Positions 5,728-41,778 of a DNA stretch of 64,000 nt are shown here, piece after piece. Numbering within the stretch: position 1 is the first letter of the stretch; each line of letters starts with the position of its first letter. Location: sequence record KX130863, one strand, 5' to 3'. Position numbers and translations under genes: made by a program. The stretch is from Shigella phage SHSML-45. The notes under the pieces are model-generated. The model searched no databases. It saw only the letters and a program-made list of their open reading frames with translations, and was not told the origin of the DNA.

Positions 5728-6080
5728 TAATCTTTCCTATTGTTAATGGGTGGATAGTAAATTAAGCAACGTTTTTCTTGTAAATCTTGGCGATAAAAGC
5801 AAACCATACTAGTCAATCGTGAGATATATGAATATTCTGCCTCGCGGCATTTTGCCAACATATTCCAATCTTTATATGGTACGACTACTACTACGCCATC
5901 CTCCCCATTTGTAGCTAATTTCTTTTCGAATTTGAAATCAAAGCTACAAGGTTGAAGTCCTTTAGGCCAGTCCACATGAGCTGTTGGTAGTTCATGGGTA
6001 GGTTCTGGCTTTATTTCTTGTGCACAGCCTGTGATTGTGATTGCGGCTGCGAGCAGTATTCCAAGTTTTATTTTGTGCAT
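5727..6080 (-). CDS. lipoprotein
   Basis: Signal peptide with lipobox LAAAITITGC. Confidence 0.5.
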   Translation of the reverse strand: MHKIKLGILLAAAITITGCAQEIKPEPTHELPTAHVDWPKGLQPCSFDFKFEKKLATNGEDGVVVVVPYKDWNMLAKCREAEYSYISRLTSMVCFYRQDLQEKRCLIYYPPINNRKD

Positions 6081-6766
6081 CTACGCACCTCATAATGTGT
6101 TTCTATGTATTGTTCCACTTCTACTGGAGAAACATTGAAAAACTCTGTACTTCCACTAAACCCCCCATAACTGCATCTTTTATTTTTATAGACACTATGT
6201 AGGTCAGCTTCGATCTTAGCTGTTTCTTCCTTAGAACCCTTGCCACAAATATAGTAAGATGATACTCTCAGATCTTTAAAACCACTACAAGACTTAACTT
6301 CTAGAAGTCTTTTCTGCACACTCTTACTTATACCTATTTTTATGCCTTTATCTGAAACAAATATGTATAAAAATCCTTGTGTATCCCAAGCTGTTTTGGC
6401 ACAATTTGGGCACCCACTATGGTGTAAAACGTGGTTAGTGGTTGTCTCCCACTGATGGGAACATGTATTACATAAAAACTTTAGCTTAGAAGTAGAATTA
6501 GTATATTCACTTAGTAATACGATTTTTCTAGGACTGAGGAGTGAGTTAATCCTGTCTTTGGTTAACTTTTCATTGCCTGCACATTTTGGGCATCCTCTAC
6601 CTTTATTTCTGACATTTGTAGGGGCTGTTAACCATGTATTAGAGCATATAAGACACTTAAATTGTGTCTTTGTCTTATTATGTTCATATTCCCCTACTAA
6701 TCTTACTGTCCTACCTTGAGCTTCTAAATCTTTATTAAAGATTTCTTTATTTATTTTTACGCTCAT
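6068..6766 (-). CDS. Zn-ribbon repeat protein with GIY-YIG-like (T5orf172-type) C-terminal domain
   Basis: Three CxxC...CPxC repeats followed by GFLYIFVSDKGIKIGIS; paralog of 31953..32816. Confidence 0.5.
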   Translation of the reverse strand: MSVKINKEIFNKDLEAQGRTVRLVGEYEHNKTKTQFKCLICSNTWLTAPTNVRNKGRGCPKCAGNEKLTKDRINSLLSPRKIVLLSEYTNSTSKLKFLCNTCSHQWETTTNHVLHHSGCPNCAKTAWDTQGFLYIFVSDKGIKIGISKSVQKRLLEVKSCSGFKDLRVSSYYICGKGSKEETAKIEADLHSVYKNKRCSYGGFSGSTEFFNVSPVEVEQYIETHYEVRRCTK

Positions 6767-7172
6767 CCCTACAGTACTCCAAGCTACCAGAAAGACATGC
6801 TAATCTTTCCTCGAATTCCTTACTCTGCTTTTTAGCAATTAATGTAACCAATCCAGGCTTTGCAGCTATAATATCTTGACGACTAAGTGCTTTATCAAGC
6901 TGATTAATTTTCTTGTCTAGATCTGCTTGCGAAACATTATTCATTGTGAAATACTGATTCATTCGAGTCTCACGAAGTTCACTCTCAGCCCTCACATTAT
7001 TAAGGGAAGTTTCTAGAGAAGAGATCTTTTTAGTAGCTACTGCAAGATCACCTGCTAGAGTCTCAACCTTATTAACTAAGTGATAAGCACCGAATCCGAT
7101 GCCTATCGCCAAACCAGCTCCCAGGATATACCACTTACCTTGCCATAGAGAACTAATAAAGTTTTTTATCAT
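6747..7172 (-). CDS. membrane-anchored coiled-coil protein
   Basis: N-terminal TM segment followed by heptad-rich sequence. Confidence 0.35.
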   Translation of the reverse strand: MIKNFISSLWQGKWYILGAGLAIGIGFGAYHLVNKVETLAGDLAVATKKISSLETSLNNVRAESELRETRMNQYFTMNNVSQADLDKKINQLDKALSRQDIIAAKPGLVTLIAKKQSKEFEERLACLSGSLEYCRDERKNK

Positions 7173-7849
7173 CTTTTCATATTCCTGAATGACGTAACCG
7201 TATCAAATCCATGTGCTGCTAGGCGGTCTTTATCAGAAATGGTAATAATATCTGGTTCTCCTGTTCCAAGTACGCCCCAGATATATTGTTCAATTCTCTG
7301 GTGTAATCGGTATAAGTTGCTTTCAACTTCCTGCCACGGAATACCTGATAGATGTAGGCGTGGGTTAGTTATAACCTTGAAATACTTATTACTATCTTTA
7401 TCATTTGGAACTACTGAGTCTAGAACCGCTAAAGGTACTCTTAACTCAGCTAAGGCTTCTTCAGCTTTAGAGGTAACTTCTTCTTGCCAGGATAGAATAG
7501 ATTCTTTTGGCTTTCCTCTATTTATATCTAGTAGAGAAAATCCCGTTGACCATCCATTCTCTTTCAAAACTTCTAATGCTTTGTCTAGGTTGAAAGTTTT
7601 TACTTGAGTATCCAATACATCAATATGGTACATCCAGTAAATCTCTCCTGCTAGGAAAAACGGTAGAATTTTAAAGTAGCCTTTCTTTTCACCAACACGA
7701 GCAATCATACGTTCTTGCATAATCATGTAGTTGCCATCATCTGGAGCCTTTATTGTTAGCTCTTCAGTTTTACGCTCCCAAGCACGATCGGGGTCAAACA
7801 AGCTGTTCTGCAAATCGTATACATCTGCCCATTTACTAATAATTCTCAT
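7169..7849 (-). CDS. hypothetical protein (226 aa)
   Basis: ORF, 4-nt overlaps with neighbours. Confidence 0.4.
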   Translation of the reverse strand: MRIISKWADVYDLQNSLFDPDRAWERKTEELTIKAPDDGNYMIMQERMIARVGEKKGYFKILPFFLAGEIYWMYHIDVLDTQVKTFNLDKALEVLKENGWSTGFSLLDINRGKPKESILSWQEEVTSKAEEALAELRVPLAVLDSVVPNDKDSNKYFKVITNPRLHLSGIPWQEVESNLYRLHQRIEQYIWGVLGTGEPDIITISDKDRLAAHGFDTVTSFRNMKR

Positions 7850-7852
7850 AGT

Positions 7853-8368
7853 TTATCCTCTAAATCCCTCGTAAATAGCAAATTCACCAAAATACTCGAA
7901 TCTTAACTCATTAGCAGTTTCTACTGCTTCTTTAAGATCACTAAAGATTCCGCCATAGATTGTTTTTCTATCTTTAGTAACAGAAACTTGCCACTTATTA
8001 GCTCTTTTATTCCAACTTACATTTTTGTAACCTGAAGTATTATTAGAGTACTTTGACTTATTGGCATTATTCTGTGATTCAGTAGACTCCCTCAAGTTAT
8101 CCCAAACATTATTTGTTGGGTTAATATCTTTATGGTCTATGTTTTCTGGTATATAACCTTTCTTATATAGAAAGGCTAACTGATGAGCATAGTAAGGTTT
8201 TCCATCAATTCTTATAGAAATATACCCATTGGATTTTCCACCAGCTAAACATCCAGCATGTCTGGCATTCCATGCATTATCTAACTCTTTTCTGAACTTC
8301 CACCTAAAATTTCCAATATGTTCATCATACTCCAGAATACTTTTTAGGTATTCTTGTGTTAATTCCAT
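7853..8368 (-). CDS. HNH homing endonuclease
   Basis: AHQLAFLYKKGYIPENIDHKDINPTNNVWDNLRE...YKNVSWNKRANKWQV; paralog family. Confidence 0.75.
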   Translation of the reverse strand: MELTQEYLKSILEYDEHIGNFRWKFRKELDNAWNARHAGCLAGGKSNGYISIRIDGKPYYAHQLAFLYKKGYIPENIDHKDINPTNNVWDNLRESTESQNNANKSKYSNNTSGYKNVSWNKRANKWQVSVTKDRKTIYGGIFSDLKEAVETANELRFEYFGEFAIYEGFRG

Positions 8369-15397: not shown

Positions 15398-15486
15398 TGG
15401 CGGAAGAAGGGGGAATCGAACCCACAAGGCTATATTTCAAACCGACAGATTAGCAATCTGCTGCAATACCGTTATGCTATTCTTCC
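15398..15486 (-). tRNA. tRNA-Ser (GCT), class II
   Basis: Acceptor GGAAGAA, anticodon arm GCAGA-TTGCTAA-TCTGT, long variable arm, T-arm TGGG-TTCGATT-CCCC, CCA. Confidence 0.7.
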
Positions 15487-15507
15487 GAATTTATAAGATA
15501 TATTATA

Positions 15508-16026
15508 TTAGAAATTTAGCTTCATGGCAAGAAAATTTTTCAAGTTTTCGGTAGACATCTCATCCACATCTATAGGAGAAACAAACCCATTTAATTGTCT
15601 AGCAAACTTTTCGCCAGCAGGATCATTATCCCCAACAGCTACCAATTTAAAAGGTAGTAATTTCAATTGCTTTAATAGCGGTTTTCCTGGAGAAGAACCC
15701 AACATTGCTAGAGCAGGATACCCAGCATTATGTAATGCTACAGCCTTAAATACAGATTCAGCAATTAATACTACTTTTTCATCCCCATTGAGAGTTTCTA
15801 GTCCCCATACACACTGTGTAGTAGAATAAGTAAAATATCTAGCTTCAAAGGGGCACTTACCATGACCTTTTGGAGCAGAAGGATTATAAGTCTGATAGCC
15901 TCTCAACATTCCAGAGAAGTCATACAATGGGACTGTTAGCCATCCTTCTGGGCTTAACCAGCAGTGATATTTATCTGTATCAAACCCTCTAGATAAGAGA
16001 TGTTCTGTTAGTTCATCAATAGTCAT
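15508..16026 (-). CDS. hypothetical protein with Toprim-like DxD segment
   Basis: KLVAVGDNDPAGEKFA resembles a Toprim acidic motif; start moved to the Met with GAGAGGAA SD (MTIDELTEHL). Confidence 0.4.
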   Translation of the reverse strand: MTIDELTEHLLSRGFDTDKYHCWLSPEGWLTVPLYDFSGMLRGYQTYNPSAPKGHGKCPFEARYFTYSTTQCVWGLETLNGDEKVVLIAESVFKAVALHNAGYPALAMLGSSPGKPLLKQLKLLPFKLVAVGDNDPAGEKFARQLNGFVSPIDVDEMSTENLKNFLAMKLNF

Positions 16027-16246
16027 ACTAGATTCCTCTCTCAAATTTATAAATATATTATGCAGAGAATTTAGCATTCAAGCAATTGAATTTTTTAACT
16101 TTTTAGAGGAAAATCACAGGATGCTTAAGGGTAGCAGGTAAGTGGGTAGACCCCAAAATTGTTATCCCCACTTGATTTTCAATGTGATATAGTGTAAAGT
16201 ATTTGTCATAGCTGAGTGACCAAAGAGACACACTTATCCTCTACCT

Positions 16247-16287
16247 TAAAACAGAAAAGCCCTGCGCTCTCCAGGGAACACAGGGCT
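16247..16287 (-). terminator. rho-independent terminator
   Basis: gccctg...cagggc stem followed on the minus transcript by UUUUCUGUUUU. Confidence 0.45.
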
Positions 16288-16311
16288 TACTTCGAATATT
16301 ACGTGTGGGAA

Positions 16312-17259
16312 TTACTTGTTACGCATATCCATAATCATCTGGCCATCGTAACCAGTGCCAACTACTGTTTGAGGTACACCGCCTTGATATTTCTGAGCAC
16401 GAATCATTTCAACTTCTAGTTGTTTCCAGCGAATCATCTCAGGAGTAATAGTACGTTGCAGAGCGGCGTTAGCTTCGGCTTCCTTCTTAGCTGCGTACAG
16501 TTTAGCATCTGCATCACGTTCGTTTGCAATAGCTTGGTTGTTACGAGCTTCACGATCTGCTTCTGCTTGTTTAACCTTCTGCTGTGCTTCTTGTTCAACA
16601 CGAGCCAACTCAGCTTTCGCAGCATTAACTTGTTCCTCACGAACTTTGGTATTCTGTACCTGTTCCACGATTACAGGCGGCAAAGTAATATCCTGAAGGA
16701 ACACTTGCTTAACTGTGTAACCATAAGGGCGTGCATACTCTTCAACTTCCTGTTGAATTGCGGTTTGTAATTGAGCCTGGATTTTAGCATCAAACAAATC
16801 TTGTGCTTTAGGAACAGACTTACCGAACTCACGAATAGTGGACAGTAATTTTTCAGTTACATATTTGTCTAATGCTTGATCCTGGGTACCTGCGTTAATA
16901 CGGTTAATCGGTGCCTTAGAACCATCAAACTGCAACATAACAGTCAGGTCAACAGTGGATTTAAACTTATCCTGACTAGGAACCTGAAGTTTATCTAATT
17001 TTACAGCAATGTCTTTTGTACTAAAAGTATCGAAAGATGCAAATGGGTTTACAAGATGAAAACCAGGTAATACAGGATTAGGGTCTACTTTACCCAGAAA
17101 TGTTTGGGTTTTAACCGTACCATCAGAAACAATAGTATATGAATTAAAAGCTAGGATTAAACCTGCTAAACCAACTACAGCACCAATACCCCAACGTTTA
17201 ATAGTGCGAATTACTTTTTGCTCAGAAGTCAGTTCTTTCATATTTTTAGTATTAAACAT
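16312..17259 (-). CDS. SPFH/band-7 (prohibitin/HflC-like) membrane protein
   Basis: N-terminal TM (GIGAVVGLAGLILAF), SPFH-like core, then an Ala/Glu/Gln-rich coiled coil (EQVNAAKAELARVEQEAQQKVKQAEADREARNNQAIA) as in HflK/HflC. Confidence 0.65.
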   Translation of the reverse strand: MFNTKNMKELTSEQKVIRTIKRWGIGAVVGLAGLILAFNSYTIVSDGTVKTQTFLGKVDPNPVLPGFHLVNPFASFDTFSTKDIAVKLDKLQVPSQDKFKSTVDLTVMLQFDGSKAPINRINAGTQDQALDKYVTEKLLSTIREFGKSVPKAQDLFDAKIQAQLQTAIQQEVEEYARPYGYTVKQVFLQDITLPPVIVEQVQNTKVREEQVNAAKAELARVEQEAQQKVKQAEADREARNNQAIANERDADAKLYAAKKEAEANAALQRTITPEMIRWKQLEVEMIRAQKYQGGVPQTVVGTGYDGQMIMDMRNK

Positions 17260-17270
17260 ATATTTCCTTA

Positions 17271-17471
17271 TTATTTAGAAGAGTTAGCTACTACAGTTAC
17301 TTTAGTTGCAGAAATAAACAGGCTAGCATCCACAGCAAATTCAGGAGCTTTGATATCTCCATTATGAAATATGACTATACCGGAGACTACTTCAAATGCT
17401 AGTGCTGTAACATCGGTGGTATTTACTTGTGAATGTTCACCTACTACTTTTACTATATATCGTGTTTTCAC
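17271..17471 (-). CDS. small protein (66 aa)
   Basis: ORF directly upstream of the SPFH gene. Confidence 0.35.
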   Translation of the reverse strand: MKTRYIVKVVGEHSQVNTTDVTALAFEVVSGIVIFHNGDIKAPEFAVDASLFISATKVTVVANSSK

Positions 17472-17497
17472 TTTATTTTCCTAGCAGTTAATAAAAT

Positions 17498-17572
17498 TGG
17501 CCGAGGTGACAGGATTCGAACCTGCATAAAGGAATTTAGAAGACTCCTGCCTCTCCCTTAGACTACACCCCG
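17498..17572 (-). tRNA. tRNA-Arg (TCT)
   Basis: Acceptor CGGGGTG/CACCTCG, anticodon arm GGAGT-CTTCTAA-ATTCC, T-arm GGTTCGAATCC, CCA. Confidence 0.7.
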
Positions 17573-18074
17573 TTTAAGTATTTTTAAGAACTCTCGTAAA
17601 AACTCTTAAAAATACAGACGATACCGGGAGAGTCATAAGTCTCACTCATTAAGTATTTCAAGACAAAATACAGTAACGTCTATTATTTTCCAGTTTAAGT
17701 CAAGGTGACTTAGTGGTTATGTCCTGCGGTATACTGAGGACTCGGTTAGGTTAGGGTCATGACTCCCCACCTTTTGCTGCTACTCAACAGGAGTTATCGC
17801 GAATTACCTGTGCTATTGTGCACCATTAGTGACATCTCTCATGTCAGCATTTCCCACTTTGTGGATAGCTTGAAAAACTACTCCGATATGGAGAAAGAAC
17901 TTCACTATCCTAGAATACCTTCTAAAGTTCTTCTTTAGCCTGGACATAGTTAAATCGTAATAAAACTATTCAGCAGACTGGTTGGTTAGTCTGGAACCAA
18001 CTACCGCGTGGTTTAGGCAGTGCGCAACTAACCTCGGAAGCTTTTACGTTAAAAGCACCAGTTATCCAGTTCTT

Positions 18075-18146
18075 ACCGACCGTAGGATTCGAACCTACAT
18101 CTTCCACCAGTTACGGCTTGATAATACCGTTTATACTAGATCGGCA
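18075..18146 (-). tRNA. tRNA-like (anticodon unresolved; CCA not encoded)
   Basis: Perfect T-arm GTAGG-TTCGAAT-CCTAC and acceptor GCCGATC/GGTCGGT (two G-U pairs); anticodon arm did not fold by hand. Confidence 0.4.
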
Positions 18147-18258
18147 GTGTTACTACATAAGTGATTTCCACACCCCACTATTTATAAATTAGAGAAGAAT
18201 TACTCTCTAATTTATGAATATATTATACAGAATTTATAAGCATTTAGCAAATGAATTT

Positions 18259-18693
18259 TTAGAAAAACTCGCTAGCAATCAAGGCGGCTGTTTTACCATC
18301 ATAACGCCCCGGAAACTCTGCCTTAATAGTTTTCATTAGGAGAGCTTTGGTAATACCTGGGTTTAGCTTAACCAATTCTGCAAAATATTTACGAATTTCA
18401 GTTTCAGTTAGCTGTTGTAGTGCATAATCATGCTCTAAACGCGCTAAAAGATCTAAGTATTCAGCATCAGGAGTATAGTCAACATTCGATTTTTCAGCGG
18501 CAATCCGTGTATTCTCAATTGCTTTGAGTTGTGATTTCAACCAGTTAGTAAACTCCAGCTCAGTTACGCAATCTTTATCAATACGTTGCAGGTCTCCTAG
18601 AACCGTACTTAGATGCTTAACTGATACAGCGTCACCACTTTTGCGAGCAGCTTCAATCAACTCTCGCAGTACATAAAGCATGTTCATGCCCAT
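18259..18693 (-). CDS. hypothetical protein (144 aa)
   Basis: ORF. Confidence 0.4.
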   Translation of the reverse strand: MGMNMLYVLRELIEAARKSGDAVSVKHLSTVLGDLQRIDKDCVTELEFTNWLKSQLKAIENTRIAAEKSNVDYTPDAEYLDLLARLEHDYALQQLTETEIRKYFAELVKLNPGITKALLMKTIKAEFPGRYDGKTAALIASEFF

Positions 18694-18931: not shown

Positions 18932-19381
18932 TTAAGTTTTAGTGACAGCAGGCTTATAAAATGTATGTCCCTTAATCTTAGTTGTTTTCTTAAACTTCTT
19001 TGTCCAGTATGGTTTATCTTTACCACTATGGAAGTATAAAGCTCCATGTGTAGGATCTTGTGGTAAATCAACGTAGTATATCACTCTAGCTAAATTCTTG
19101 GCAGTTTGCCAAGCCTCATCGGTTTTATCAACTTTTGGTCTCTTAGATACCCAAGAGAACTGGTTAGACTGATATACTACTTTACAGTAGGAATCTGGAA
19201 ATTTGCCGGAGTTTACACGGTTTTTAGTAACCTGTGCAACCGCCATCATTCCCTTTATGCCCTCACCACGACTCTCGAAATAGATATTTTTAGCAATGCA
19301 ATCTATTTCTTTTGCATCGTGCGATGCTTGACTACTAAAGCTGAAGGTAAGGGCAGCTACTAAAAGCAAAGCTGCCTTCAT
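18932..19381 (-). CDS. secreted cell-wall hydrolase (SleB/CwlJ-like)
   Basis: Signal peptide MKAALLLVAALTFSFSSQA; IAKNIYFESRGEGIKGMMAVAQVTKNR...FPDSYCKVVYQSNQFSW matches the SleB-type hydrolase pattern. Confidence 0.55.
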   Translation of the reverse strand: MKAALLLVAALTFSFSSQASHDAKEIDCIAKNIYFESRGEGIKGMMAVAQVTKNRVNSGKFPDSYCKVVYQSNQFSWVSKRPKVDKTDEAWQTAKNLARVIYYVDLPQDPTHGALYFHSGKDKPYWTKKFKKTTKIKGHTFYKPAVTKT

Positions 19382-19393
19382 TCTTTTTACTCC

Positions 19394-20215
19394 TTAAAAT
19401 AGATCATATTCTAATCTATTGGGATTTTCTCGGTATCCATAAGACGTAAGAGTACCCCTCATATACTCTGCGTCAACAGGATTAGATGTTACTAGAACCA
19501 CTTTTAGTGGTCTTTGACCTAAAAATAGTATATGATCTAATAAGTCTTTTCCTTGTACCTCTGGATCTCCTAAATCTGAGTCCATAAATAAATAGGATCC
19601 TGTGAAACTAAATATATCTGATAGCTCCAGCGCACCTATAACTGTACGACAAATAATGGACATTTCAGGTAGATCTCTAACATCGTCTATTAGAATATTG
19701 GTCTGCTTCCCAATTTCTGCATTACATAAACCATTTACTAGTTTTTCTCTTTCCCCTTTAGCTTGTTCGAAAGTGGTGAAGCCAGGAGATACGAAAAACT
19801 TTCCACCTAATGTAATGCTATACACAAAACCCTCGGGGAGGAGTTCTACACCTACGGTTTTATTAGTATTAATCCTATTTAACTTAAAATTTGTCTCTCT
19901 TAGATTAATAATTCTGTTATCCCACGGTATAGTATTTATATGGTCGATCATATCAGGCGGCTCTTCACCATAATGGAGCAACCACGCTATTCGGTGTCCA
20001 TAAATAATTGTGGGTTTATTATCTAAGAGCAAACTAACTCTGATGTACCCATCAGAGTTCTTACTACATATTTCTCTCCCAGCATATAGGGTGTGCCAAG
20101 TTTTATTCTTGTATTTATTAGGCCTATAAAATAATTTACCGGTATAAGGATTATACTCTATAATTTCTCGAATATAATCTATATATGGTAGTATTTGTTT
20201 TTGTAATTTACCCAT
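19394..20215 (-). CDS. HNH-AP2 homing endonuclease with ~100-aa C-terminal extension
   Basis: YGHRIAWLLHYGEEPPDMIDHINTIPWDNRIINLR and an AP2-like segment, then an unassigned C-terminal domain. Confidence 0.55.
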   Translation of the reverse strand: MGKLQKQILPYIDYIREIIEYNPYTGKLFYRPNKYKNKTWHTLYAGREICSKNSDGYIRVSLLLDNKPTIIYGHRIAWLLHYGEEPPDMIDHINTIPWDNRIINLRETNFKLNRINTNKTVGVELLPEGFVYSITLGGKFFVSPGFTTFEQAKGEREKLVNGLCNAEIGKQTNILIDDVRDLPEMSIICRTVIGALELSDIFSFTGSYLFMDSDLGDPEVQGKDLLDHILFLGQRPLKVVLVTSNPVDAEYMRGTLTSYGYRENPNRLEYDLF

Positions 20216-32816: not shown

Positions 32817-34629
32817 ATTAATTGAGAATTGCAAAGGTCTGCTCACTCTAACTGCGGATAAGGACTTACAGCATAATAATGCTAATAAGCCTAGTGAGAT
32901 GTTCCATACTCAAAGAGACTTATTGGCCGGAGAAATCAACAAATATTTAGTATCGCAGGAATTACCCAAACATCTATTAGACGCCCATAATCTAGGTAAG
33001 ATACACATTCATGATATGGATTACAGGGCGCAGGGGTACACTAACTGTTGCTTAGTAGACCTTGGTGGCATGCTGAAGAATGGTACTAAAATTGGTAATG
33101 CAAATATTGAAACTCCTAAATCCATAACTACTGCATGTGCAATCACTGCTCAGATTATTGCCCAAGTATCTGGTGCTCAGTATGGTGGCACCTCTATTGA
33201 TCGTATCGACGAGGTTCTAGCCCCGTATGTCAGAAAGTCTTACAATAAACATCTGGGTCGTGGGCTACGTTGGCTCAAGGATGAAAGAAAAGCTGCTGTG
33301 TATGCTACTGAGCTTACTGAAAAAGAGTGTTATGATGCATTCCAAGCTCTAGAGTATGAAACTAATTCATTATTTAACTCTAATGGGCAGACCCCTTTTG
33401 TTACGCATGGCTTTGGATTAGGTCAGGAGTGGGAGGAAAGGATGATTCAGAAAGCCATCCTCCAAAATCGTATTAAAGGTTTAGGTGCTGCTGAGTCAAC
33501 CCCTATCTTCCCTAAACTAGTATTCTCAGTTAAAGAAGGGTTAAATAAAAATCCAGGCGATCCTAACTACGATATAAAACAGCTAGCACTTGAGTGTTCT
33601 GCTACCCGTATGTACCCAGACTATTTAAGCTATGAGAAAGTTGTAGCTGTTACTGGTGATTTTAAAGCCCCTATGGGTTGTCGTAGCTTTTTATCTGCTA
33701 TCCCCTCCGGAGAAATTGCAGGGCGCAATAATTTAGGTGTAGTGTCTATTAATCTACCTATGGTTGCTGCTGAGGCAGATGGGGTTTTTGAAGATTTCTG
33801 GGATATTCTGGACAAATATGTGGATGAGGCTTTTGAAGCTCATGATTTTTTCTTGGATAGACTTAAGAAAGTGAAGGCTAAACAAGCCCCTATTCTTTAT
33901 ATGCACGGTGGTTTTGGTGTGCGTTTAGATGGGGAAGAGTATGTATGGCCTATTTTTGAGGGTAGATCTTCTGTATCTCTTGGATACATTGGGGTCTATG
34001 AGATGTGCCAAATAATGTTTAGTCTACCACAAACCCATAGGGATTGTATTGAATTTACAGAAGAAGTTCTTACTCACCTAAAAAATCGTTGCGAAGTTAA
34101 AGCTAATGAGACTAATCTTGGATTTAGCTTATACGCTACCCCTAGTGAGTCTCTATGTAATCGTTTTAATAAATTACTAGAACGTAGATTCCCAGAGTAT
34201 TCTTGGTTAACAGACAAAGGCTATCTTACTAATAGTCACCATTTGGACGTAAGAGAGAAGGTAGCCCCAGATACTAAATTTGAGTACGAAGCTCATTTTA
34301 CCAAAATAGCTAATGGTGGTAATATATCGTTTGTGGAATTACCACAAATGAAAAAATTCCATAAAGCTCTTGAATACGTAGTAGATAAGGGACTAGAGTG
34401 TAGCCATTATATCGGTGTTAATATACCGATTGACGAGTGTTTCAACTGTGGATATATGGGTGAATCTATTGCCTCTGAGCGTGGGTTTGTATGTCCAAGT
34501 TGTGGGTCTGAAGAAATAGAGGTTACACGTAGGGTTTGCGGGTACCTGGGATCCCCGGGCAGTAGGCCTTTCAATTCTGGGAAACAAAAAGAAGTGCTTG
34601 GTAGAGTAAAACACTTAAATCTTAAGTAA
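32803..34629 (+). CDS. nrdD: anaerobic ribonucleoside-triphosphate reductase (class III NrdD)
   Basis: 608 aa; C-terminal zinc ribbon CFNCGYMGE...CPSCGS and glycyl-radical motif TRRVCGYLGS. Confidence 0.85.
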   Translation: MTENELIENCKGLLTLTADKDLQHNNANKPSEMFHTQRDLLAGEINKYLVSQELPKHLLDAHNLGKIHIHDMDYRAQGYTNCCLVDLGGMLKNGTKIGNANIETPKSITTACAITAQIIAQVSGAQYGGTSIDRIDEVLAPYVRKSYNKHLGRGLRWLKDERKAAVYATELTEKECYDAFQALEYETNSLFNSNGQTPFVTHGFGLGQEWEERMIQKAILQNRIKGLGAAESTPIFPKLVFSVKEGLNKNPGDPNYDIKQLALECSATRMYPDYLSYEKVVAVTGDFKAPMGCRSFLSAIPSGEIAGRNNLGVVSINLPMVAAEADGVFEDFWDILDKYVDEAFEAHDFFLDRLKKVKAKQAPILYMHGGFGVRLDGEEYVWPIFEGRSSVSLGYIGVYEMCQIMFSLPQTHRDCIEFTEEVLTHLKNRCEVKANETNLGFSLYATPSESLCNRFNKLLERRFPEYSWLTDKGYLTNSHHLDVREKVAPDTKFEYEAHFTKIANGGNISFVELPQMKKFHKALEYVVDKGLECSHYIGVNIPIDECFNCGYMGESIASERGFVCPSCGSEEIEVTRRVCGYLGSPGSRPFNSGKQKEVLGRVKHLNLK

Positions 34630-34636
34630 GCTAATC

Positions 34637-34670
34637 AGCCAGGTTGCTAGTCGACCTGGCTTTTATTTTA
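34637..34670 (+). terminator. rho-independent terminator
   Basis: Stem agccaggt/acctggct followed by TTTTATTTTATTT. Confidence 0.55.
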
Positions 34671-34671
34671 T

Positions 34672-34700
34672 TTGCTTTCAGCTAAAAATATATGTATAAT
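34672..34700 (+). promoter_or_regulatory. early promoter (TTGCTT-17-TATAAT)
   Basis: ttgctt 34672-34677, tataat 34695-34700, then conserved ATAAATTTGAGAGGAG leader and ATG at 34729. Confidence 0.55.
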
Positions 34701-34728
34701 AGATTTATAAATTTGAGAGGAGAAAGCT

Positions 34729-35010
34729 ATGAGAGAGTTGCTTCCTAAAGTAGATGTCTCCCATCTTGGAGAGCCTAGTGAAGAACGTAAGGCTCTAGAT
34801 TGGTTGGGTGGATTTGATTATCGTCGTGTTGTTGCAACATGGAATGATAAGAAAGTTAAGAAGTTTCGGGTACATTATGTAGGTAAAGACAAGTGGCTCT
34901 GGATTGATTATGAAGAATCGAAGGGGTCTACTAAGGCTGTGAAAATTTATTGTATGTATGGGTATTATTATGCTCACTGTGACAAGAATGAATTTACAGT
35001 ACAGAACTAA
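34729..35010 (+). CDS. hypothetical protein (93 aa)
   Basis: ORF with promoter and SD. Confidence 0.45.
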   Translation: MRELLPKVDVSHLGEPSEERKALDWLGGFDYRRVVATWNDKKVKKFRVHYVGKDKWLWIDYEESKGSTKAVKIYCMYGYYYAHCDKNEFTVQN

Positions 35011-35019
35011 GGAACAAGA

Positions 35020-35223
35020 ATGAAAAACGTAAAACACCTTAAATATCGCTTAATTTACAACGGACGTATGGAAACAGAAGACCTAGCTCAATTAGCTATT
35101 AATTCTAATGAGGTCACGGTACGTGCGTTAGCTATTGAAAAGTTGCGGGCTTCTTATGAAAGTCGTATTATGGAACTAGAGGAGAAACTTTATGGCATTC
35201 TCGAAGCCGATGCTACCAGATAA
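35020..35223 (+). CDS. hypothetical protein (67 aa)
   Basis: ORF. Confidence 0.35.
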   Translation: MKNVKHLKYRLIYNGRMETEDLAQLAINSNEVTVRALAIEKLRASYESRIMELEEKLYGILEADATR

Positions 35224-35581
35224 GGGTTTAAACGCCGCTTTGGAAAACGCATTAATGCAGCACTGGTTCTCTGTCAGGAATGAGATGGAGAACGTTCAGA
35301 TTATGACCGGATTAGATCTTATCGATCGTTTTCTTGGTACAACGGATTTTACTGGTGGTGGGCTATCTAGGGGTAATTCTGTTCTTCGCTTCGTTGAAAA
35401 GCATAAGCTCAAACATTGGTGTGTGCTGGATGATGCTGGTGCTATGATGTATCAGTACCCAACGGTTATAGTCAACGGTAGAACTGGAATAAATCTTCAA
35501 GATTTAAGAGCTGTTAGCTATATGCTAGAATTTAGCCCAGATCTTGAAATGTGTAAATCCTTACAACAATTTAAGGTGTAA
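35192..35581 (+). CDS. hypothetical protein (129 aa)
   Basis: ORF. Confidence 0.4.
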   Translation: MAFSKPMLPDKGLNAALENALMQHWFSVRNEMENVQIMTGLDLIDRFLGTTDFTGGGLSRGNSVLRFVEKHKLKHWCVLDDAGAMMYQYPTVIVNGRTGINLQDLRAVSYMLEFSPDLEMCKSLQQFKV

Positions 35582-35583
35582 AT

Positions 35584-36012
35584 ATGTTCAATAATGTATT
35601 CTCTAAAGAAGCTAACCCAATTTTGGTTAACTTTTGGCGTACTCTCCCGGCTAGCCTGTATAATGAGGCTATTAATGCTCTGAAAATATGGTGTGAAAAT
35701 AATGAAATCTCCTTTGCTTTTAAAGATGATATTGATGAGGCCCCCTGTATTGGTTTAGTTGTGCAGGTAGAGGATGGTCTTGAAGAGATTGTGGGCTGGA
35801 AAGAGTTGGATGAAATGGGGTTGGTTTTTGCATTAAACTATAAGCTATTTATGCCCAATAAACACCGTATTGTTGTTAATTATAAAACCAGTGAATCTCC
35901 TGGTTTTCAAGTTAATGAACACTACGGTTGGTCTTACTCACCGGAAGAAGTAAATGATGGTATCCAAAAACTTCGTCGTTTTGGTTATCAAATTCCCGGT
36001 TTAACTGCCTAA
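35584..36012 (+). CDS. hypothetical protein, paralog A of a tandem pair
   Basis: Shares ...ELD(W/E)xELxxMGL(I/V)xALN(Y/F)xLF...P(D/E)...(F/I)(Y/Q)IPGL with 36022..36414. Confidence 0.45.
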   Translation: MFNNVFSKEANPILVNFWRTLPASLYNEAINALKIWCENNEISFAFKDDIDEAPCIGLVVQVEDGLEEIVGWKELDEMGLVFALNYKLFMPNKHRIVVNYKTSESPGFQVNEHYGWSYSPEEVNDGIQKLRRFGYQIPGLTA

Positions 36013-36021
36013 GGGGACACA

Positions 36022-36414
36022 ATGGAACAAGTATATTGGCGTCAGATTGATCCTAGTTTGGTGAATCGTGCGGAGAAGCTGCTACAACGTTGGTTGGGGG
36101 TAAGACAAGCCTCCTTCACTTTTCCAGAGCAGCAAATAGATGATCCCTGTGTTGATGTTTTCCTATCAGGCTACGCTAGGGAATGGGAATTGGATTGGAA
36201 TGAGTTGTCTGCTATGGGTTTAATTGTTGCCCTAAATTTCTCTTTGTTCCATCCACGTGGTTTGGCCATATGTCGTGTGCCTGATGACGGTTGTTCGCCC
36301 CATCTTTTACAGGTGGAAGATGATATTTGGGAGTACACTCCAGATATTCTCAAAGAAGCCAAAGAACAATTAAACCGTGTTGGAATTTATATTCCAGGCC
36401 TGAATGATGAATGA
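36022..36414 (+). CDS. hypothetical protein, paralog B of a tandem pair
   Basis: See paralog A; same length class (130 vs 142 aa). Confidence 0.45.
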   Translation: MEQVYWRQIDPSLVNRAEKLLQRWLGVRQASFTFPEQQIDDPCVDVFLSGYAREWELDWNELSAMGLIVALNFSLFHPRGLAICRVPDDGCSPHLLQVEDDIWEYTPDILKEAKEQLNRVGIYIPGLNDE

Positions 36415-36553
36415 TTTTTATTAGCTGAAATTTGTAATCCGGGCTATTAGTGCTCGGATTATTACATAATCTTTCCAGTCGATTGACAGTCAAAATAAAA
36501 TGTCGTTGACAATTTGGATGGATTATGTAATAATATATGTATTGGAGGTGAGG

Positions 36554-37006
36554 ATGTCATTCACACAGCAAGAACTTTTAGATAACTTCCGATATGAAGA
36601 TGGTAAGTTATTTAGAACTACAGGAAGAAATGCAGGGAAAGAATGTTGTGTTTCTACGGGTAACGGATATTATCGTATATCTCTAGGGAATAGGACTATG
36701 CTTCGGCATAGAGCAATATTTTTAATGCATCATGGATACTTACCTGATTTAGTAGATCATGTGAATACTATAAAAGGTGATGATCGTATTGAAAATCTTA
36801 GAGAGCAGACAGTGTCCGGTAATCTAAGAAATATCAAATATAAGAAAGGAATGCATGTTTACCCTTCTGGTAGTAAGAACTGGCAAGTAGTATTTACTAT
36901 TAACCGTAAACGTATAGTTAAAGGAACATATGACAACTATGAGGTTGCATGTTCTATGGCCAAGATGTTTAGAGGTCAATTATACGGTAGGGAATCAATC
37001 CAGTAA
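36554..37006 (+). CDS. HNH homing endonuclease
   Basis: RHRAIFLMHHGYLPDLVDHVNTIKGDDRIENLRE; start set at the Met after GGAGGTGAGG SD. Confidence 0.7.
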   Translation: MSFTQQELLDNFRYEDGKLFRTTGRNAGKECCVSTGNGYYRISLGNRTMLRHRAIFLMHHGYLPDLVDHVNTIKGDDRIENLREQTVSGNLRNIKYKKGMHVYPSGSKNWQVVFTINRKRIVKGTYDNYEVACSMAKMFRGQLYGRESIQ

Positions 37007-37015
37007 AATTTCATT

Positions 37016-37044
37016 TGCAAGGGAGTATTATTTTATAGTATAAT
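37016..37044 (+). promoter_or_regulatory. promoter copy 1 (TTGCAA-17-TATAAT) of a tandem pair
   Basis: ttgcaa 37016-37021, tataat 37039-37044, followed by 39-bp repeat copy 1. Confidence 0.5.
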
Positions 37045-37055
37045 ATTCCCATAAA

Positions 37056-37094
37056 TGAGAGACATTAGTAAAAATTGATTTTGCTAATTTTTCT
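37056..37094 (+). repeat. 39-bp direct repeat, copy 1
   Basis: tgagagacattagtaaaaattgattttgctaatttttct, identical to 37179-37217. Confidence 0.8.
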
Positions 37095-37136
37095 CTATGT
37101 TCAAAGACACTGGTAGCAGCCCCGGGAAAAATTTAC

Positions 37137-37165
37137 TTGCATGATGCCCAAAATCTTGATATAAT
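37137..37165 (+). promoter_or_regulatory. promoter copy 2 (TTGCAT-17-TATAAT)
   Basis: ttgcat 37137-37142, tataat 37160-37165, followed by repeat copy 2. Confidence 0.45.
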
Positions 37166-37178
37166 ATTTATATTGAAT

Positions 37179-37217
37179 TGAGAGACATTAGTAAAAATTG
37201 ATTTTGCTAATTTTTCT
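37179..37217 (+). repeat. 39-bp direct repeat, copy 2
   Basis: Identical to 37056-37094; period 123 bp. Confidence 0.8.
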
Positions 37218-37662
37218 TGTTTACAATCCGCGATACGGAACAGTTAGGCTGCCCCATTAAGGGTTGTTTTAACTATTACTAGTGTTTATATTGCATTAGT
37301 TAATCTTCAATTAAGTGATCTGTGTACCCTGAATTCGGAAAGGTAAATCCAAACCGTGCATGTTTAGCTCGTTATATAGGCAGAGCTTTATATGGGGGTG
37401 CGAACGAAAAGAGCAGCGAATGGCGGCACGTACAGTAGTCACCTACCAATAGGATAGTGAGGACAAATAGAATCGGCTTAGCGGCCAATGACCTAGGTTC
37501 TATTCTGTATAAGAGCGAAGAGAGCACAGCACTGAGATATGATAACTTATTCATATTGTTTGATGATAATTGATGTTTACGTAAATAGTAGTAATAGTTG
37601 TTCTATTCTTTCTGAATAGTCCTAAAGAAAACTTATTTCATTTCCAACACAGGAGTATTGTT

Positions 37663-40452: not shown

Positions 40453-40669
40453 AAAATGGGAAACAAGGAAGTTTCCAGTAAAAGAACGTAAAGTTCCTGT
40501 TTATGATACTTCGGAAAAGCTATGTAGGGTGGTTCCTGCTAGACTAGCTGGTATCCCTAACATATCCGAGTGGTTACTTAAACAACGGAGGACTAACGTA
40601 TCCCTTCGCATAGGGTTTGAGTTAGATAAAGTATATGCTGAGCTTTCTTCTTTGCTCAAAGAATCATAA
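40427..40669 (+). CDS. hypothetical protein (80 aa)
   Basis: ORF overlapping the end of the upstream gene. Confidence 0.35.
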   Translation: MLEMTVKNKKWETRKFPVKERKVPVYDTSEKLCRVVPARLAGIPNISEWLLKQRRTNVSLRIGFELDKVYAELSSLLKES

Positions 40670-40678
40670 AAAATTTAT

Positions 40679-40707
40679 TTGCTTTCAGGAAAAATTTTCT
40701 GTATAAT
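40679..40707 (+). promoter_or_regulatory. early promoter (TTGCTT-17-TATAAT)
   Basis: ttgctt 40679-40684, tataat 40702-40707, conserved ATAAATTTGAGAGAGGAG leader, ATG at 40739. Confidence 0.55.
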
Positions 40708-40738
40708 AGATTCATAAATTTGAGAGAGGAGTTTAAAT

Positions 40739-41443: not shown

Positions 41444-41672
41444 ACTAACTGATTTACTTAAAGATGGAGATGTAAAATATCTCCAGCGGGATAGCTGGGA
41501 AAATAATAAAGAGTATACTGTATTATTGAAATTTGACGTATACAGCAATACTGTACGCCAATACGTGTGGATGCCTTCAGATACTACGCTGCTGCCTAGT
41601 GATGAAGAGGTTGAATTAACACTAGACGAAGCTCTAGCGGATGATTGGGAGATTGTTGAGCTAGATGTGTAG
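41412..41672 (+). CDS. hypothetical acidic protein (86 aa)
   Basis: ORF. Confidence 0.35.
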   Translation: MIKKKENAVSRLTDLLKDGDVKYLQRDSWENNKEYTVLLKFDVYSNTVRQYVWMPSDTTLLPSDEEVELTLDEALADDWEIVELDV

Positions 41673-41778
41673 CAATTACCGAAAAATTTCAGTTGCTTAA
41701 TCCTACAATTCTTGATATAATATTCTCATAGTTTGAAAGAACTATTCTGTTTAATTCTTAATTAAGGAAATATAAAAT

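What the first reader, a model, noticed from the sequence alone, without database searches (positions are those of the whole stretch)
16312..17259. Phage-encoded SPFH/prohibitin-like membrane protein
The ORF has an N-terminal TM helix, a band-7-like core and an HflK/C-like Ala/Glu/Gln-rich coiled coil. In bacteria HflKC cages the FtsH protease, so a phage copy could modulate FtsH or membrane microdomains early in infection. It sits in the tRNA island with its own terminator (16247-16287) and a 66-aa partner ORF upstream (17271-17471).
Basis: partly seen in the sequence, partly recalled or inferred. Interest (0 to 1): 0.6.

Follow-up and report, generated by a model that had tools for sequence, protein, structure and literature searches.

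The report
T5-family phage SPFH membrane scaffold gene
This is a real phage gene, annotated since 2004, for a membrane-anchored SPFH (stomatin/prohibitin/HflK-C-like) scaffold protein; nearly all T5-like phages keep it under strong selection, yet T5 grows normally without it in the laboratory, so its role is still unknown and probably conditional.

Summary
The window is Salmonella phage Shivani, a T5-like phage. The ORF at 16312-17259(-) is gp161, the ortholog (99% aa identity) of T5p078/T5.080, and public T5 records have flagged its Band 7 domain since 2004.

- Pfam Band_7 hit, E=3.4e-17.
- One N-terminal TM helix.
- A predicted α/β SPFH core followed by a 76-residue helix.
- Full-length structural matches to every cage-forming SPFH protein.
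- A strong terminator hairpin, and a position inside the tRNA island.

Three parts of the interpretation do not hold:
- The protein is not an HflK or HflC ortholog. There is no NCBIfam hit, and the family profile scores HflK at about 0 bits, HflC at 19 and QmcA at 33.
- The 66-aa "partner" is an ORFan indel that T5 and all T4-like carriers lack.
- The common database label "lipoprotein" is wrong, because the protein has no cysteine.

The gene is near-universal in Tequintavirus, has dN/dS 0.024 against T5, and is shared with T4-like phages. It is nevertheless dispensable: it lies inside the T5 st0 deletion and scored "Not Fit" in a published knock-down screen.

My best reading is an early-expressed, solitary SPFH protein that forms a homo-oligomeric cage on the inner membrane, probably on the periplasmic side. 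Its function would be conditional and its client is unknown. The FtsH idea is untested. The gene's existence and domain are already known; its function is open.

The parts
18222..18250 (-). Early sigma-70 promoter (TTGCTA-N17-TATAAT) that drives the transcription unit; equivalent to T5 promoter P16-17
   Evidence: Promoter scan gives 10/12 matches. The sequence is identical in T5, where AY734508 annotates promoter P16-17 at the corresponding place.
17573..18221 (-). Non-coding leader equivalent to T5 'RNAX'. It includes a tRNA-like element at 18073-18146 that ARAGORN calls tRNA-Ser(act).
   Evidence: T5 record AY734508 annotates misc_RNA rnaX between P16-17 and tRNA-Arg. The alignment to T5 shows it conserved apart from an 87-bp indel. 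ARAGORN result.
17498..17572 (-). tRNA-Arg(TCT), co-transcribed upstream of the protein genes
   Evidence: ARAGORN; annotated tRNA-Arg in the T5 and Shivani records.
17271..17471 (-). orf66 (Shivani gp160): an optional 66-aa ORFan inserted between tRNA-Arg and the SPFH gene. Not a conserved partner.
   Evidence: Matches PHROG 11609, unknown function. Absent from T5 as a clean ~204-bp indel. Found only in T5-like phages at >=90% identity, in 193 records. Only 2 clusters in 5.8 billion proteins. No Pfam, NCBIfam or PADLOC hit. The AF2 model is unusable, pLDDT 41.
17265..17269 (-). Ribosome-binding site AAGGA, 5 nt upstream of the SPFH ATG
   Evidence: Read directly from the sequence. Annotated as an RBS in NC_028754.
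16312..17259 (-). SPFH/Band-7 protein gene (315 aa; Shivani gp161 = T5p078 = T5.080)
   Evidence: Pfam Band_7 E=3.4e-17. PHROG 200 E=5e-86. 99.9% DNA identity to Shivani and 99% aa identity to T5. dN/dS 0.024.
17134..17193 (-). Signal-anchor TM helix (residues ~23-42), preceded by a Lys/Arg-rich N-tail (residues 1-22)
   Evidence: Hydropathy 1.79 over 19 residues, 6 K/R upstream, no Cys anywhere. AF2 helix over residues 12-38. The TM segment is present in 97-98% of family members.
16684..17139 (-). Alpha/beta SPFH core (residues ~41-192)
   Evidence: AF2 strands and helices over residues 41-192, pLDDT 75-88. Pfam match over residues 52-225. Foldseek hits to stomatin SPFH-domain crystal structures.
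16390..16677 (-). Long helical 'wall' region: helix 195-270 (76 residues) plus helix 273-290
   Evidence: AF2 prediction. AEQKR fraction up to 0.77. Full-length alignment to the coiled-coil walls of erlin, prohibitin, HflK/C and stomatin cages. Length varies among homologs only in 11-residue steps, 52/63/74/85.
16315..16389 (-). Conserved C-terminal tail (residues 291-315, Y-x-G-G-V-P-Q-T-V-V-G...M-D-M-R); a candidate cap or closure segment
   Evidence: Near-invariant positions Y291, G293, V295, P296, T298, G301, D311 and R313 in 34 homologs. Low monomer confidence, pLDDT ~40, as would be expected for a segment that folds only in an oligomer; that last step is inference.
16247..16288 (-). Intrinsic terminator hairpin plus T-tract ending the unit. 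It also contains the T5 'major nick 3' octamer CCCTGCGC at 16260-16267 (+).
   Evidence: 13-bp stem with 7 GC pairs and a T-tract. dG -23.1 kcal/mol, z=-4.16. Conserved in T5, where the records annotate a rho-independent terminator and the 32.6% single-strand interruption at this spot.

Best explanation
The gene encodes a solitary, single-pass SPFH scaffold protein of a largely phage-borne subfamily (PHROG 200). It is made early in infection as the last cistron of the unit P16-17 > RNAX > tRNA-Arg > (orf66) > SPFH > terminator.

Proposed mechanism:
- The protein inserts into the inner membrane through an N-terminal signal anchor. The Lys/Arg-rich N-tail stays in the cytoplasm, so the SPFH core, the ~11-nm helix and the conserved C-tail face the periplasm. 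This orientation is inferred.
- Like every structurally solved SPFH protein of this architecture, it then assembles into a homo-oligomeric ring or cage that fences off a patch of membrane and the proteins in it. This is inferred from the fold and not shown.
- It has no catalytic domain, no obligate partner gene and no lipid anchor.

Its contribution is accessory and conditional, relating to host range, envelope state or counter-defence. It is not part of the core lytic programme: T5 grows normally without it in laboratory E. coli, yet natural T5-like phages almost never lose it. The client protein or proteins are unknown.
For: Identity:
- Band_7 hit E=3.4e-17.
- The AF2 model shows a TM helix, an α/β core, a 76-residue helix and a second helix.
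- Foldseek gives full-length matches with probability 1.0 to erlin1/2 (5.7e-15), prohibitin (6e-14), HflK/C (1e-12), stomatin (1e-12), QmcA (2e-10) and flotillin. All of these are solved as membrane-attached cages.

Oligomer-compatible features:
- Helix length among 119 homologs takes only the values 52, 63, 74 and 85 residues, that is 11-residue (three-turn) steps.
- The C-tail is strongly conserved but low-confidence in the monomer model.

Solitary gene:
- orf66 is absent from T5 and from the T4-like carriers.
- The chromosomal homologs in Morganella, Providencia and methylotrophs have different housekeeping neighbours and no NfeD or second SPFH gene.

Orientation:
- 6 K/R in the 22-residue N-tail against net ~0 after the TM.
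- The family mean is 3.0 K/R before the TM and 1.5 after. QmcA and YqiK have 0 before the TM.

Early expression:
- The promoter is identical to T5 P16-17, and no other minus-strand promoter match lies between it and the gene.

Selected but dispensable:
- dN/dS 0.024.
- Present at >=80-90% identity in 428-437 records, against ~440 records carrying a T5-type polymerase.
- Synteny Hydrolase_2-YqeY-SPFH is kept in a divergent T5-like contig.
- The gene lies inside the st0 deletion, 33667-41891.
- 'Not Fit' in CRISPRi-ART (PMC11879866).
- Mutants with a ~8-kb deletion of the tRNA-rich region are viable (PMC11555353).
Against: - Oligomerisation, topology and membrane localisation are all predictions. 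None was or could be tested here.
- The crude positive-inside count miscalls E. coli HflC, at 2 K/R before against 4 after, so the orientation call is only moderately reliable.
- No client, phenotype or condition is known, so 'conditional function' is an inference from conservation combined with dispensability.
- The monomer model has pTM of only 0.45.
- Whether the published ~8-kb TRR/ADI deletions remove exactly this gene is inferred from the st0 coordinates. The papers do not state it.
Confidence: 0.6

Rival explanations
1. FtsH modulator. The phage protein acts like HflK/C, caging or competing for the periplasmic domain of host FtsH and so changing turnover of FtsH substrates early in infection.
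For: It has the same overall architecture and the same predicted N-in/C-out orientation as HflK/C. HflK/C-FtsH cages are the best-precedented bacterial SPFH mechanism (PDB 7vhq, 7wi3 and 9cz2 among the Foldseek hits).
Against: - It is not an HflK/HflC ortholog. No NCBIfam HflK/HflC hit; profile scores HflK 0.4 bits, HflC 19 bits and QmcA 33 bits; no HflK/C hit in the PDB profile search at E<=10.
- It is a single gene, not a K/C pair.
- Solitary chromosomal members of the same subfamily occur in Morganella and Providencia. As Enterobacterales these should also carry their own hflKC (my expectation, not checked here), which would imply a different job.
- T5 is strictly lytic, so there is no CII-type switch to tune.
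- Knock-down has no fitness effect.
Confidence: 0.13
2. Counter-defence or membrane-protection factor. The cage stabilises the inner membrane, or sequesters a host membrane-acting abortive-infection effector or sensor, extending host range on strains that carry such systems.
For: - The gene sits in the deletable tRNA-rich region, also called the 'Anti-Defense Island', of T5-like phages. That region holds proven counter-defence elements: tRNA-Tyr, and Rad, the adjacent Toprim gene whose window equivalent is 15508-16077 (bioRxiv 10.1101/2023.03.15.532788; PMC11555353; annotation).
- The island deletion in T5n also lowered plating on AVAST 2, with the determinant unidentified.
- The pattern 'strongly conserved but dispensable on lab strains' is typical of anti-defence genes.
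- The gene spreads horizontally between unrelated virulent phages.
Against: - No experimental link exists.
- None of the retron-rescuing fragments (F6-F8) is described as containing this gene.
- No PADLOC relationship.
- AVAST 2 is not known to me as a membrane-acting system.
- Island location is only guilt by association. In T4-like phages the gene sits in a different neighbourhood, tk-rI.
Confidence: 0.2
3. Lysis-timing or superinfection-exclusion factor. The periplasm-facing cage modulates holin/antiholin behaviour or blocks genome entry by secondary phages.
For: - In Pseudotevenvirus and Slopekvirus-type T4-like phages the gene directly follows rI (the lysis-inhibition antiholin) and rI.-1.
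- In an Aeromonas T4-like phage a 'lysis inhibition' gene is ~3 kb away.
- In T5-like phages a secreted SleB-like cell-wall hydrolase lies ~1.7 kb upstream, and this synteny is conserved.
- The predicted periplasmic location fits.
Against: The tk-rI region of T4-like phages is a known hyperplastic insertion zone (my knowledge), so adjacency is weak evidence. T5 has no rI/LIN system known to me. No lysis phenotype is reported for st0 or TRR deletion mutants.
Confidence: 0.07

Closest known systems
T5p078 / T5.080 of phage T5 (AAU09419 'putative membrane protease', AAX12012 'putative transmembrane protein, band 7'), and Shivani gp161 itself (YP_009194713)
   Same: This is the same gene: 99% aa identity, the same position between tRNA-Arg and the terminator/nick-3 hairpin, and the same promoter. 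The Band 7 domain has been noted in the T5 records since 2004.
   Different: Shivani has the extra orf66 upstream and lacks the + strand T5p075-077 block downstream. The public product names ('lipoprotein', 'membrane protease') are not supported: the protein has no Cys and no protease domain.
E. coli HflK/HflC (FtsH-regulating SPFH cage)
   Same: Single N-terminal TM; predicted N-in/C-out orientation; SPFH core, long helical wall and C-terminal segment. Foldseek E~1e-12 over the full length.
   Different: No specific sequence relationship: HflK 0.4 bits, HflC 19 bits, no TIGRFAM-type hit. It is one gene and not a hetero-pair. It lacks HflK's long N-terminal extension. FtsH binding is untested.
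E. coli QmcA-YbbJ (stomatin-type SPFH with NfeD partner) and eukaryotic prohibitins/erlins
   Same: These are the best sequence matches among solved structures: QmcA 2.8e-7, PHB2 1e-4. Erlin and prohibitin are the best Foldseek matches. Size (~300 aa) and domain order are similar.
   Different: Only ~20% identity. There is no NfeD gene nearby. The N-tail charge pattern is opposite to QmcA's, which has 0 K/R before the TM, predicting the opposite orientation.
Other virus-encoded SPFH proteins (RB43 ORF139c, 44RR ORF098c, Aeh1 ORF064c; Vibrio, Rhizobium and Streptomyces phage and giant-virus Band 7 proteins)
   Same: RB43-type T4-like phages carry true orthologs at 72-80% identity (Nolan et al. 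2006, PMC1524935). Many other viruses carry proteins of the same fold.
   Different: The more distant viral SPFH proteins are only 13-21% identical and probably represent independent acquisitions. None has a demonstrated function in the literature I could search.

Membership tests
SPFH / Band 7 superfamily (PF01145) | Significant match to the Band_7 profile above Pfam's gathering score | tested here: met
   63.5 bits against a cutoff of 23.6, E=3.4e-17, residues 52-225.
SPFH / Band 7 superfamily (PF01145) | Alpha/beta SPFH fold followed by a long helical region, membrane-anchored at the N-terminus | tested here: met
   AF2 model with pLDDT 76.8. Foldseek probability 1.0 to erlin, prohibitin, HflK/C, stomatin, QmcA and flotillin over ~270-317 aligned columns. 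This rests on a prediction, not an experiment.
SPFH / Band 7 superfamily (PF01145) | Assembly into a large membrane-attached ring or cage | not testable with these tools
   Indirect support only: 11-residue quantised helix length and a conserved C-tail that is low-confidence in the monomer model.
HflK/HflC (FtsH regulators) | Sequence membership (NCBIfam/TIGRFAM HflK or HflC models; closest E. coli paralog) | tested here: not met
   No NCBIfam hit at E<=0.1. Family profile scores: HflK 0.4 bits, HflC 19.3 bits, QmcA 33 bits. No HflK/C hit in the PDB profile search at E<=10.
HflK/HflC (FtsH regulators) | Two paralogous adjacent genes forming a hetero-oligomer | tested here: not met
   Single gene in T5-like and T4-like phages and in the bacterial chromosomes.
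HflK/HflC (FtsH regulators) | Type II (N-in, C-out) topology with a periplasmic SPFH domain | tested here: inconclusive
   The charge distribution favours N-in, with 6 K/R in the N-tail. The simple count miscalls HflC itself. No experimental topology is available.
HflK/HflC (FtsH regulators) | Physical association with FtsH | not testable with these tools
   Needs pull-down, crosslinking or a structure.
Stomatin/QmcA-type SPFH with NfeD partner | Adjacent NfeD (PF01957) gene | tested here: not met
   No NfeD hit in orf66 or other neighbours. orf66 against E. coli YbbJ gives nothing. orf66 is absent from most carriers. The fold test of orf66 is inconclusive, pLDDT 41.
Bacterial lipoprotein (the label carried by PHROG 200 and RefSeq) | Lipobox with an invariant Cys at the signal-peptide cleavage site | tested here: not met
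   The protein contains no cysteine. Only 5 of 117 close homologs have any Cys in the first 45 residues, and none of them matches a lipobox pattern.
Flotillin/YqiK type | Sequence similarity and a long flotillin-type C-terminal repeat region (~550 aa proteins) | tested here: not met
   No profile score against YqiK. The protein is 315 aa. Flotillin ranks lower in Foldseek, at 1e-8.
T5 deletable tRNA-rich region / 'Anti-Defense Island' gene | Lies within the region lost in viable deletion mutants | tested here: met
   The T5 gene is at 39794-40738 and the st0 deletion joins 33667-33683 to 41882-41891. The ~8-kb TRR/ADI deletions are described; their exact ends were not available to me.
T5 deletable tRNA-rich region / 'Anti-Defense Island' gene | Demonstrated anti-defence activity | not tested
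   The rescuing fragments were F6 (tRNA-Tyr), F7 (ORF71/72) and F8 (Rad). Nothing is reported for this gene.

The most novel reading that the evidence does not exclude
The phage SPFH cage is a transferable counter-measure that acts at the inner membrane. It would corral or shield a host membrane protein: a membrane-acting abortive-infection effector or sensor, FtsH, or the entry route of competing phages. That would explain four things together: it rides in the T5 anti-defence island, it hops between T5-like and T4-like phages, it is almost never lost in nature, and it is invisible on defence-poor laboratory strains. It would be the first SPFH scaffold shown to be a viral weapon.
Probability: 0.2. 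Interest if true: 0.75.

Novelty: already known. Interest (0 to 1): 0.3.

Why it matters
As an object, the gene is ordinary. It has been annotated since the first T5 genome records, and its domain call is simply confirmed here.

What remains open is its function. No virus-encoded SPFH protein has a demonstrated role. Yet this one is kept by essentially every Tequintavirus under strong purifying selection, and it has been exchanged with T4-like phages.

Recent cryo-EM work shows that SPFH proteins build membrane cages that control access to client proteins. A phage version, sitting in a proven anti-defence island, is a tractable place to ask what such cages do during infection.

On the practical side, the analysis corrects three misleading annotations ('lipoprotein', 'membrane protease', 'HflK/C-like partner pair'). 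It also identifies experiments that are already in hand: the st0 and TRR deletion mutants and the CRISPRi-ART data.

Tried and rejected
1. orf66 as an NfeD-like or obligate partner: rejected on distribution. It is absent from T5 and the T4-like carriers and is an ORFan. The fold test failed, pLDDT 41.

2. A conserved ABC-transporter neighbour of the bacterial homologs: this was a false lead. Morganella has a C39-peptidase ABC exporter plus HlyD. The methylotrophs have a soluble ABC-F protein. BLAST had linked the two only through the shared ATPase domain.

3. The lipoprotein label of PHROG 200 and RefSeq: rejected, no Cys.

4. The 'membrane protease' label (COG0330 wording): there is no protease domain.

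5. A relationship to a known defence system: no PADLOC hit.

6. HflK/HflC orthology: rejected.

7. The Morganella/Providencia copies being prophage-borne: rejected. Their neighbours are housekeeping genes and differ between the two genera. In a crude NJ tree these copies nest among T5-like phage genes. The tree has no support values, so the direction of transfer is only suggested.

8. Literature searches for any functional study of a phage SPFH protein, or of this locus tag, found none.

9. Heptad or hendecad periodicity of hydrophobic residues in the long helix gave no clear signal. Only the 11-residue indel quantisation is informative.
Full report
**What the window is.** The region 15400-18200 is 99.9% identical to Salmonella phage Shivani (KP143763 / NC_028754; genus Tequintavirus) and 95.5% identical to phage T5. 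The ORF in the finding, 16312-17259 on the minus strand, is Shivani gp161, annotated 'lipoprotein, band 7 domain'. Its T5 counterpart is 99% identical in protein sequence. T5 records name it T5p078 'putative membrane protease; contains band 7 family protein PF01145; COG0330' in AY734508, and 'putative transmembrane protein; IPR001107 band 7' in AY587007. A recent functional-genomics study numbers it T5.080.

**Checking the observation.** Every descriptive element is present.
- The ORF is 315 aa, with an ATG start preceded by AAGGA at a 5-nt spacing.
- Pfam Band_7 scores 63.5 bits (cutoff 23.6, E=3.4e-17) over residues 52-225. PHROG 200 matches at E=5e-86.
- There is one hydrophobic segment, at about residues 23-42. 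The 22-residue N-tail carries 6 Lys/Arg.
- Residues 211-270 are 67-77% Ala/Glu/Gln/Lys/Arg.
- AlphaFold2, run with a 34-sequence alignment (mean pLDDT 76.8), predicts a TM helix (12-38), an α/β core (41-192), one uninterrupted 76-residue helix (195-270) and a second helix (273-290). The C-tail (291-315) is low confidence.
- Foldseek aligns essentially the whole chain, at probability 1.0, with the subunits of every solved SPFH cage: erlin1/2 (5.7e-15), prohibitin (6e-14), HflK/C (1e-12), stomatin (1e-12), QmcA (2e-10) and flotillin (1e-8).
- The terminator is a 13-bp stem plus T-tract at 16247-16288, with dG -23.1 kcal/mol, z=-4.16, and none of 200 shuffles folding as well.
- Ten tRNA genes lie between 11821 and 18146.
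- Between Shivani and T5 the gene has 32 synonymous and 3 non-synonymous differences, giving dN/dS 0.024. It is a protein-coding gene under strong purifying selection.

**Transcription unit.** The only good minus-strand sigma-70 match upstream is TTGCTA-N17-TATAAT at 18250-18222. It is base-for-base identical in T5, where AY734508 annotates it as promoter P16-17, followed by 'RNAX', tRNA-Arg and T5p078. The gene is therefore the last cistron of an early unit that runs promoter > RNAX (with a tRNA-like element) > tRNA-Arg > orf66 > SPFH > terminator. It has its own terminator but shares its promoter with the RNA genes.

**The 'partner' ORF.** orf66 (17271-17471) is a clean indel of about 204 bp. 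T5 goes directly from tRNA-Arg to the SPFH ribosome-binding site. It occurs in 193 phage records, all T5-like and all at least 90% identical, whereas the SPFH protein is found in 724 records. A search of 5.8 billion protein clusters returns only two clusters, at 94-96% identity. It has no Pfam, NCBIfam or PADLOC match and no TM segment. It shows no similarity to the E. coli NfeD protein YbbJ. Its AF2 model is unusable, at pLDDT 41. The T4-like phages that carry the SPFH gene have unrelated neighbours. I conclude it is an optional ORFan neighbour and not a partner.

**Which SPFH protein is it?**
- No NCBIfam model hits, including the HflK and HflC models.
- I retrieved the four E. coli K-12 SPFH paralogs and scored them with the phage-family profile. 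QmcA scores 33 bits, HflC 19, HflK 0.4 and YqiK nothing. Chromosomal homologs from Morganella and Providencia score about 495 bits.
- The same profile against all PDB sequences finds QmcA (2.8e-7) and prohibitins (1e-4 to 5e-4), but no HflK/C at E<=10.
- Against 1.84 billion cluster representatives it finds only 1,994 proteins at E<=1e-3 and 86 at E<=1e-30. This is a discrete subfamily within the superfamily.
- The subfamily is neither an HflK/C ortholog nor a stomatin/NfeD pair. It is also not a lipoprotein, because the protein contains no cysteine.

**Distribution and evolution.**
- Close homologs (55-98% identity) come from T5-like phages and from 165-180-kb T4-like myoviruses: RB43, GAP161, Klebsiella, Enterobacter, Cronobacter and Pantoea phages, Aeromonas phages, and Morganella phage Mm5. 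Nolan et al. had already listed the Band 7 domain in RB43 ORF139c, 44RR ORF098c and Aeh1 ORF064c in 2006 (PMC1524935).
- About 440 phage records carry a T5-type DNA polymerase at >=90% identity. Of the records with the SPFH protein, 428 have it at >=90% identity and 9 more at 80-90%. The gene is therefore near-universal in this phage group.
- A divergent T5-like metagenomic contig keeps the local order SleB-like hydrolase, YqeY-like, SPFH.
- In bacterial genomes, homologs at 57-59% identity sit in Morganella and Providencia chromosomes, and homologs at 31-41% sit in methylotrophs and a few other lineages.
- The neighbours of these chromosomal copies are housekeeping genes that differ between lineages, with no second SPFH gene, no NfeD and no phage genes.
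- A crude neighbour-joining tree puts all phage copies in one clade. The methylotroph and other chromosomal genes fall outside it, and the Morganellaceae copies form a shallow group nested among T5-like phage genes. That suggests one capture by phages, spread among unrelated virulent phages, and a return to Morganellaceae. The tree has no support values, so I treat this as suggestive only.

**Dispensability.** The AY734508 record gives the T5 st0 deletion junctions as 33667-33683 and 41882-41891. The gene lies at 39794-40738, so the widely used st0 strain lacks it. In the CRISPRi-ART transcriptome-wide knock-down of T5, T5.080 (39791-40738, phrog_200) is 'Not Fit', with fitness -4.28 and p=0.85 (PMC11879866, supplementary files 8 and 16). 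Azam et al. describe viable T5 and SP15 mutants that lack an ~8-kb tRNA-rich region, called the 'Anti-Defense Island' in their preprint. These mutants grow normally but lose infectivity on retron-bearing hosts. The determinants were mapped to tRNA-Tyr, ORF71/72 and Rad. Rad is the Toprim gene immediately downstream of our gene, at window 15508-16077. Reduced plating of T5n on AVAST 2 was left unexplained. Nothing is reported for the SPFH gene.

**How it most likely works.**
- Shown: the domain, the single TM segment, the early promoter and terminator, conservation, selection and dispensability.
- Inferred from the fold: like all solved proteins of this architecture, it should assemble into a homo-oligomeric ring or cage on the membrane.
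- Two sequence features fit a packed helical wall. First, the distance between two conserved anchor motifs flanking the long helix takes only the values 52, 63, 74 and 85 residues in 119 homologs, which is steps of 11 residues or three helical turns. Second, the C-terminal 25 residues are nearly invariant yet unstructured in the monomer model.
- Inferred from charge: the Lys/Arg-rich N-tail should stay cytoplasmic, placing the SPFH domain in the periplasm as in HflK/C. This is opposite to QmcA and YqiK, which have no positive charge before their TM. The simple count miscalls HflC, so I hold this at moderate confidence.
- Inferred from 'conserved but dispensable': the role is conditional.
- I can only rank candidate clients. 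They are a membrane-level counter-defence or membrane-protection role (island context; about 0.2), FtsH modulation (precedent only, and weakened by the lack of specific similarity; about 0.13), and lysis timing or superinfection exclusion (adjacency to rI and rI.-1 in T4-like phages; about 0.07).

**Novelty and score.** The feature is real and correctly recognised, but it is already annotated. Viral SPFH proteins are common, and the obvious deletion experiment has been done with a null result. I found no functional study of any phage SPFH protein, so the function is a genuine open question with a reasonable experimental path. I score interest at 0.3 and novelty as 'already known'. I give a 0.2 chance that the gene turns out to be a membrane-level counter-defence or host-takeover device, which would be considerably more interesting.

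Noticed in passing
window 16257-16288 (hairpin); octamer at 16260-16267 (+): The terminator hairpin downstream of the SPFH gene contains CCCTGCGC. This is identical to the site that T5 record AY587007 annotates as 'major single-stranded nick 3, 32.6%', and AY734508 marks it as a 'major DNA single-chain interruption'. The same element is thus both a terminator and a conserved genome nick site.
   Followed up: partly
window 15508-16077 (-): This Toprim-only 'primase-like' ORF (189 aa; Toprim_2, PHROG 849) is the ortholog of T5.076 / SP15 ORF75 'Rad', reported to neutralise several retrons. It lies immediately downstream of the SPFH terminator.
   Followed up: partly
window 16078-16256, compared with L002 1783-3549: Shivani lacks the ~1.5-kb plus-strand block that T5 carries here: T5p075-077 with promoter P12 and the bidirectional terminator ter1. 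The region around the SPFH gene is an indel hotspot.
   Followed up: no
window 17573-18221; tRNA-like element at 18073-18146: ARAGORN calls a tRNA-Ser with the odd anticodon ACT inside what T5 annotates as 'RNAX' or a pseudo-tRNA. T5 has an extra 87-bp duplicated segment here relative to Shivani.
   Followed up: no
window 18932-19381 (-) and 18259-18693 (-); L071 3640-4513: A SleB-like cell-wall hydrolase (Hydrolase_2) carries an apparent signal peptide, MKAALLLVAALTFSFSSQA. A YqeY/GatB-like protein ('tRNA amidotransferase') lies just upstream of the SPFH unit. The order hydrolase, YqeY, SPFH is conserved in a divergent T5-like contig.
   Followed up: partly
window 19394-20215 (-): A 273-aa ORF combines an HNH_3 endonuclease domain with a cREC_REC (cyclic-phosphate-processing receiver) domain. 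A cREC_REC ORF also appears near the SPFH gene in L071.
   Followed up: no
L022, L023, L026, L028, L029 (about 6001-8200): In five Methylococcaceae-type genomes, the stop codon of the distant SPFH homolog overlaps or abuts the start of a Pyr_redox_2 (NDH-2-like) oxidoreductase gene, which suggests an operon. DUF2782 lies upstream, and YcxB and ABC-F lie downstream.
   Followed up: partly
L007 (NZ_JBHSCL010000010.1, 178,077 bp); P0028, P0051, P0061: Records labelled as a Flagellimonas marina contig, a Klebsiella pneumoniae 'plasmid' and Enterobacter asburiae are ~174-178-kb sequences. They carry the T4-like-phage version of this gene at 73-78% identity. They are probably phage genomes mislabelled as bacterial or plasmid DNA.
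   Followed up: no
L019 7159-11316 (Morganella morganii chromosome): In Morganella the chromosomal SPFH homolog is followed on the same strand by a 91-aa ORF, a HlyD-family protein and a C39-peptidase ABC exporter, which is a bacteriocin-export-type cluster. This is not seen in Providencia or the methylotrophs.
   Followed up: partly
LC788711.1 (E. coli phage NG_S8) 28690-28815: One T5-like genome retains only the last 42 codons of the SPFH gene. It is a natural or laboratory deletion variant that could serve as a ready-made mutant.
   Followed up: no
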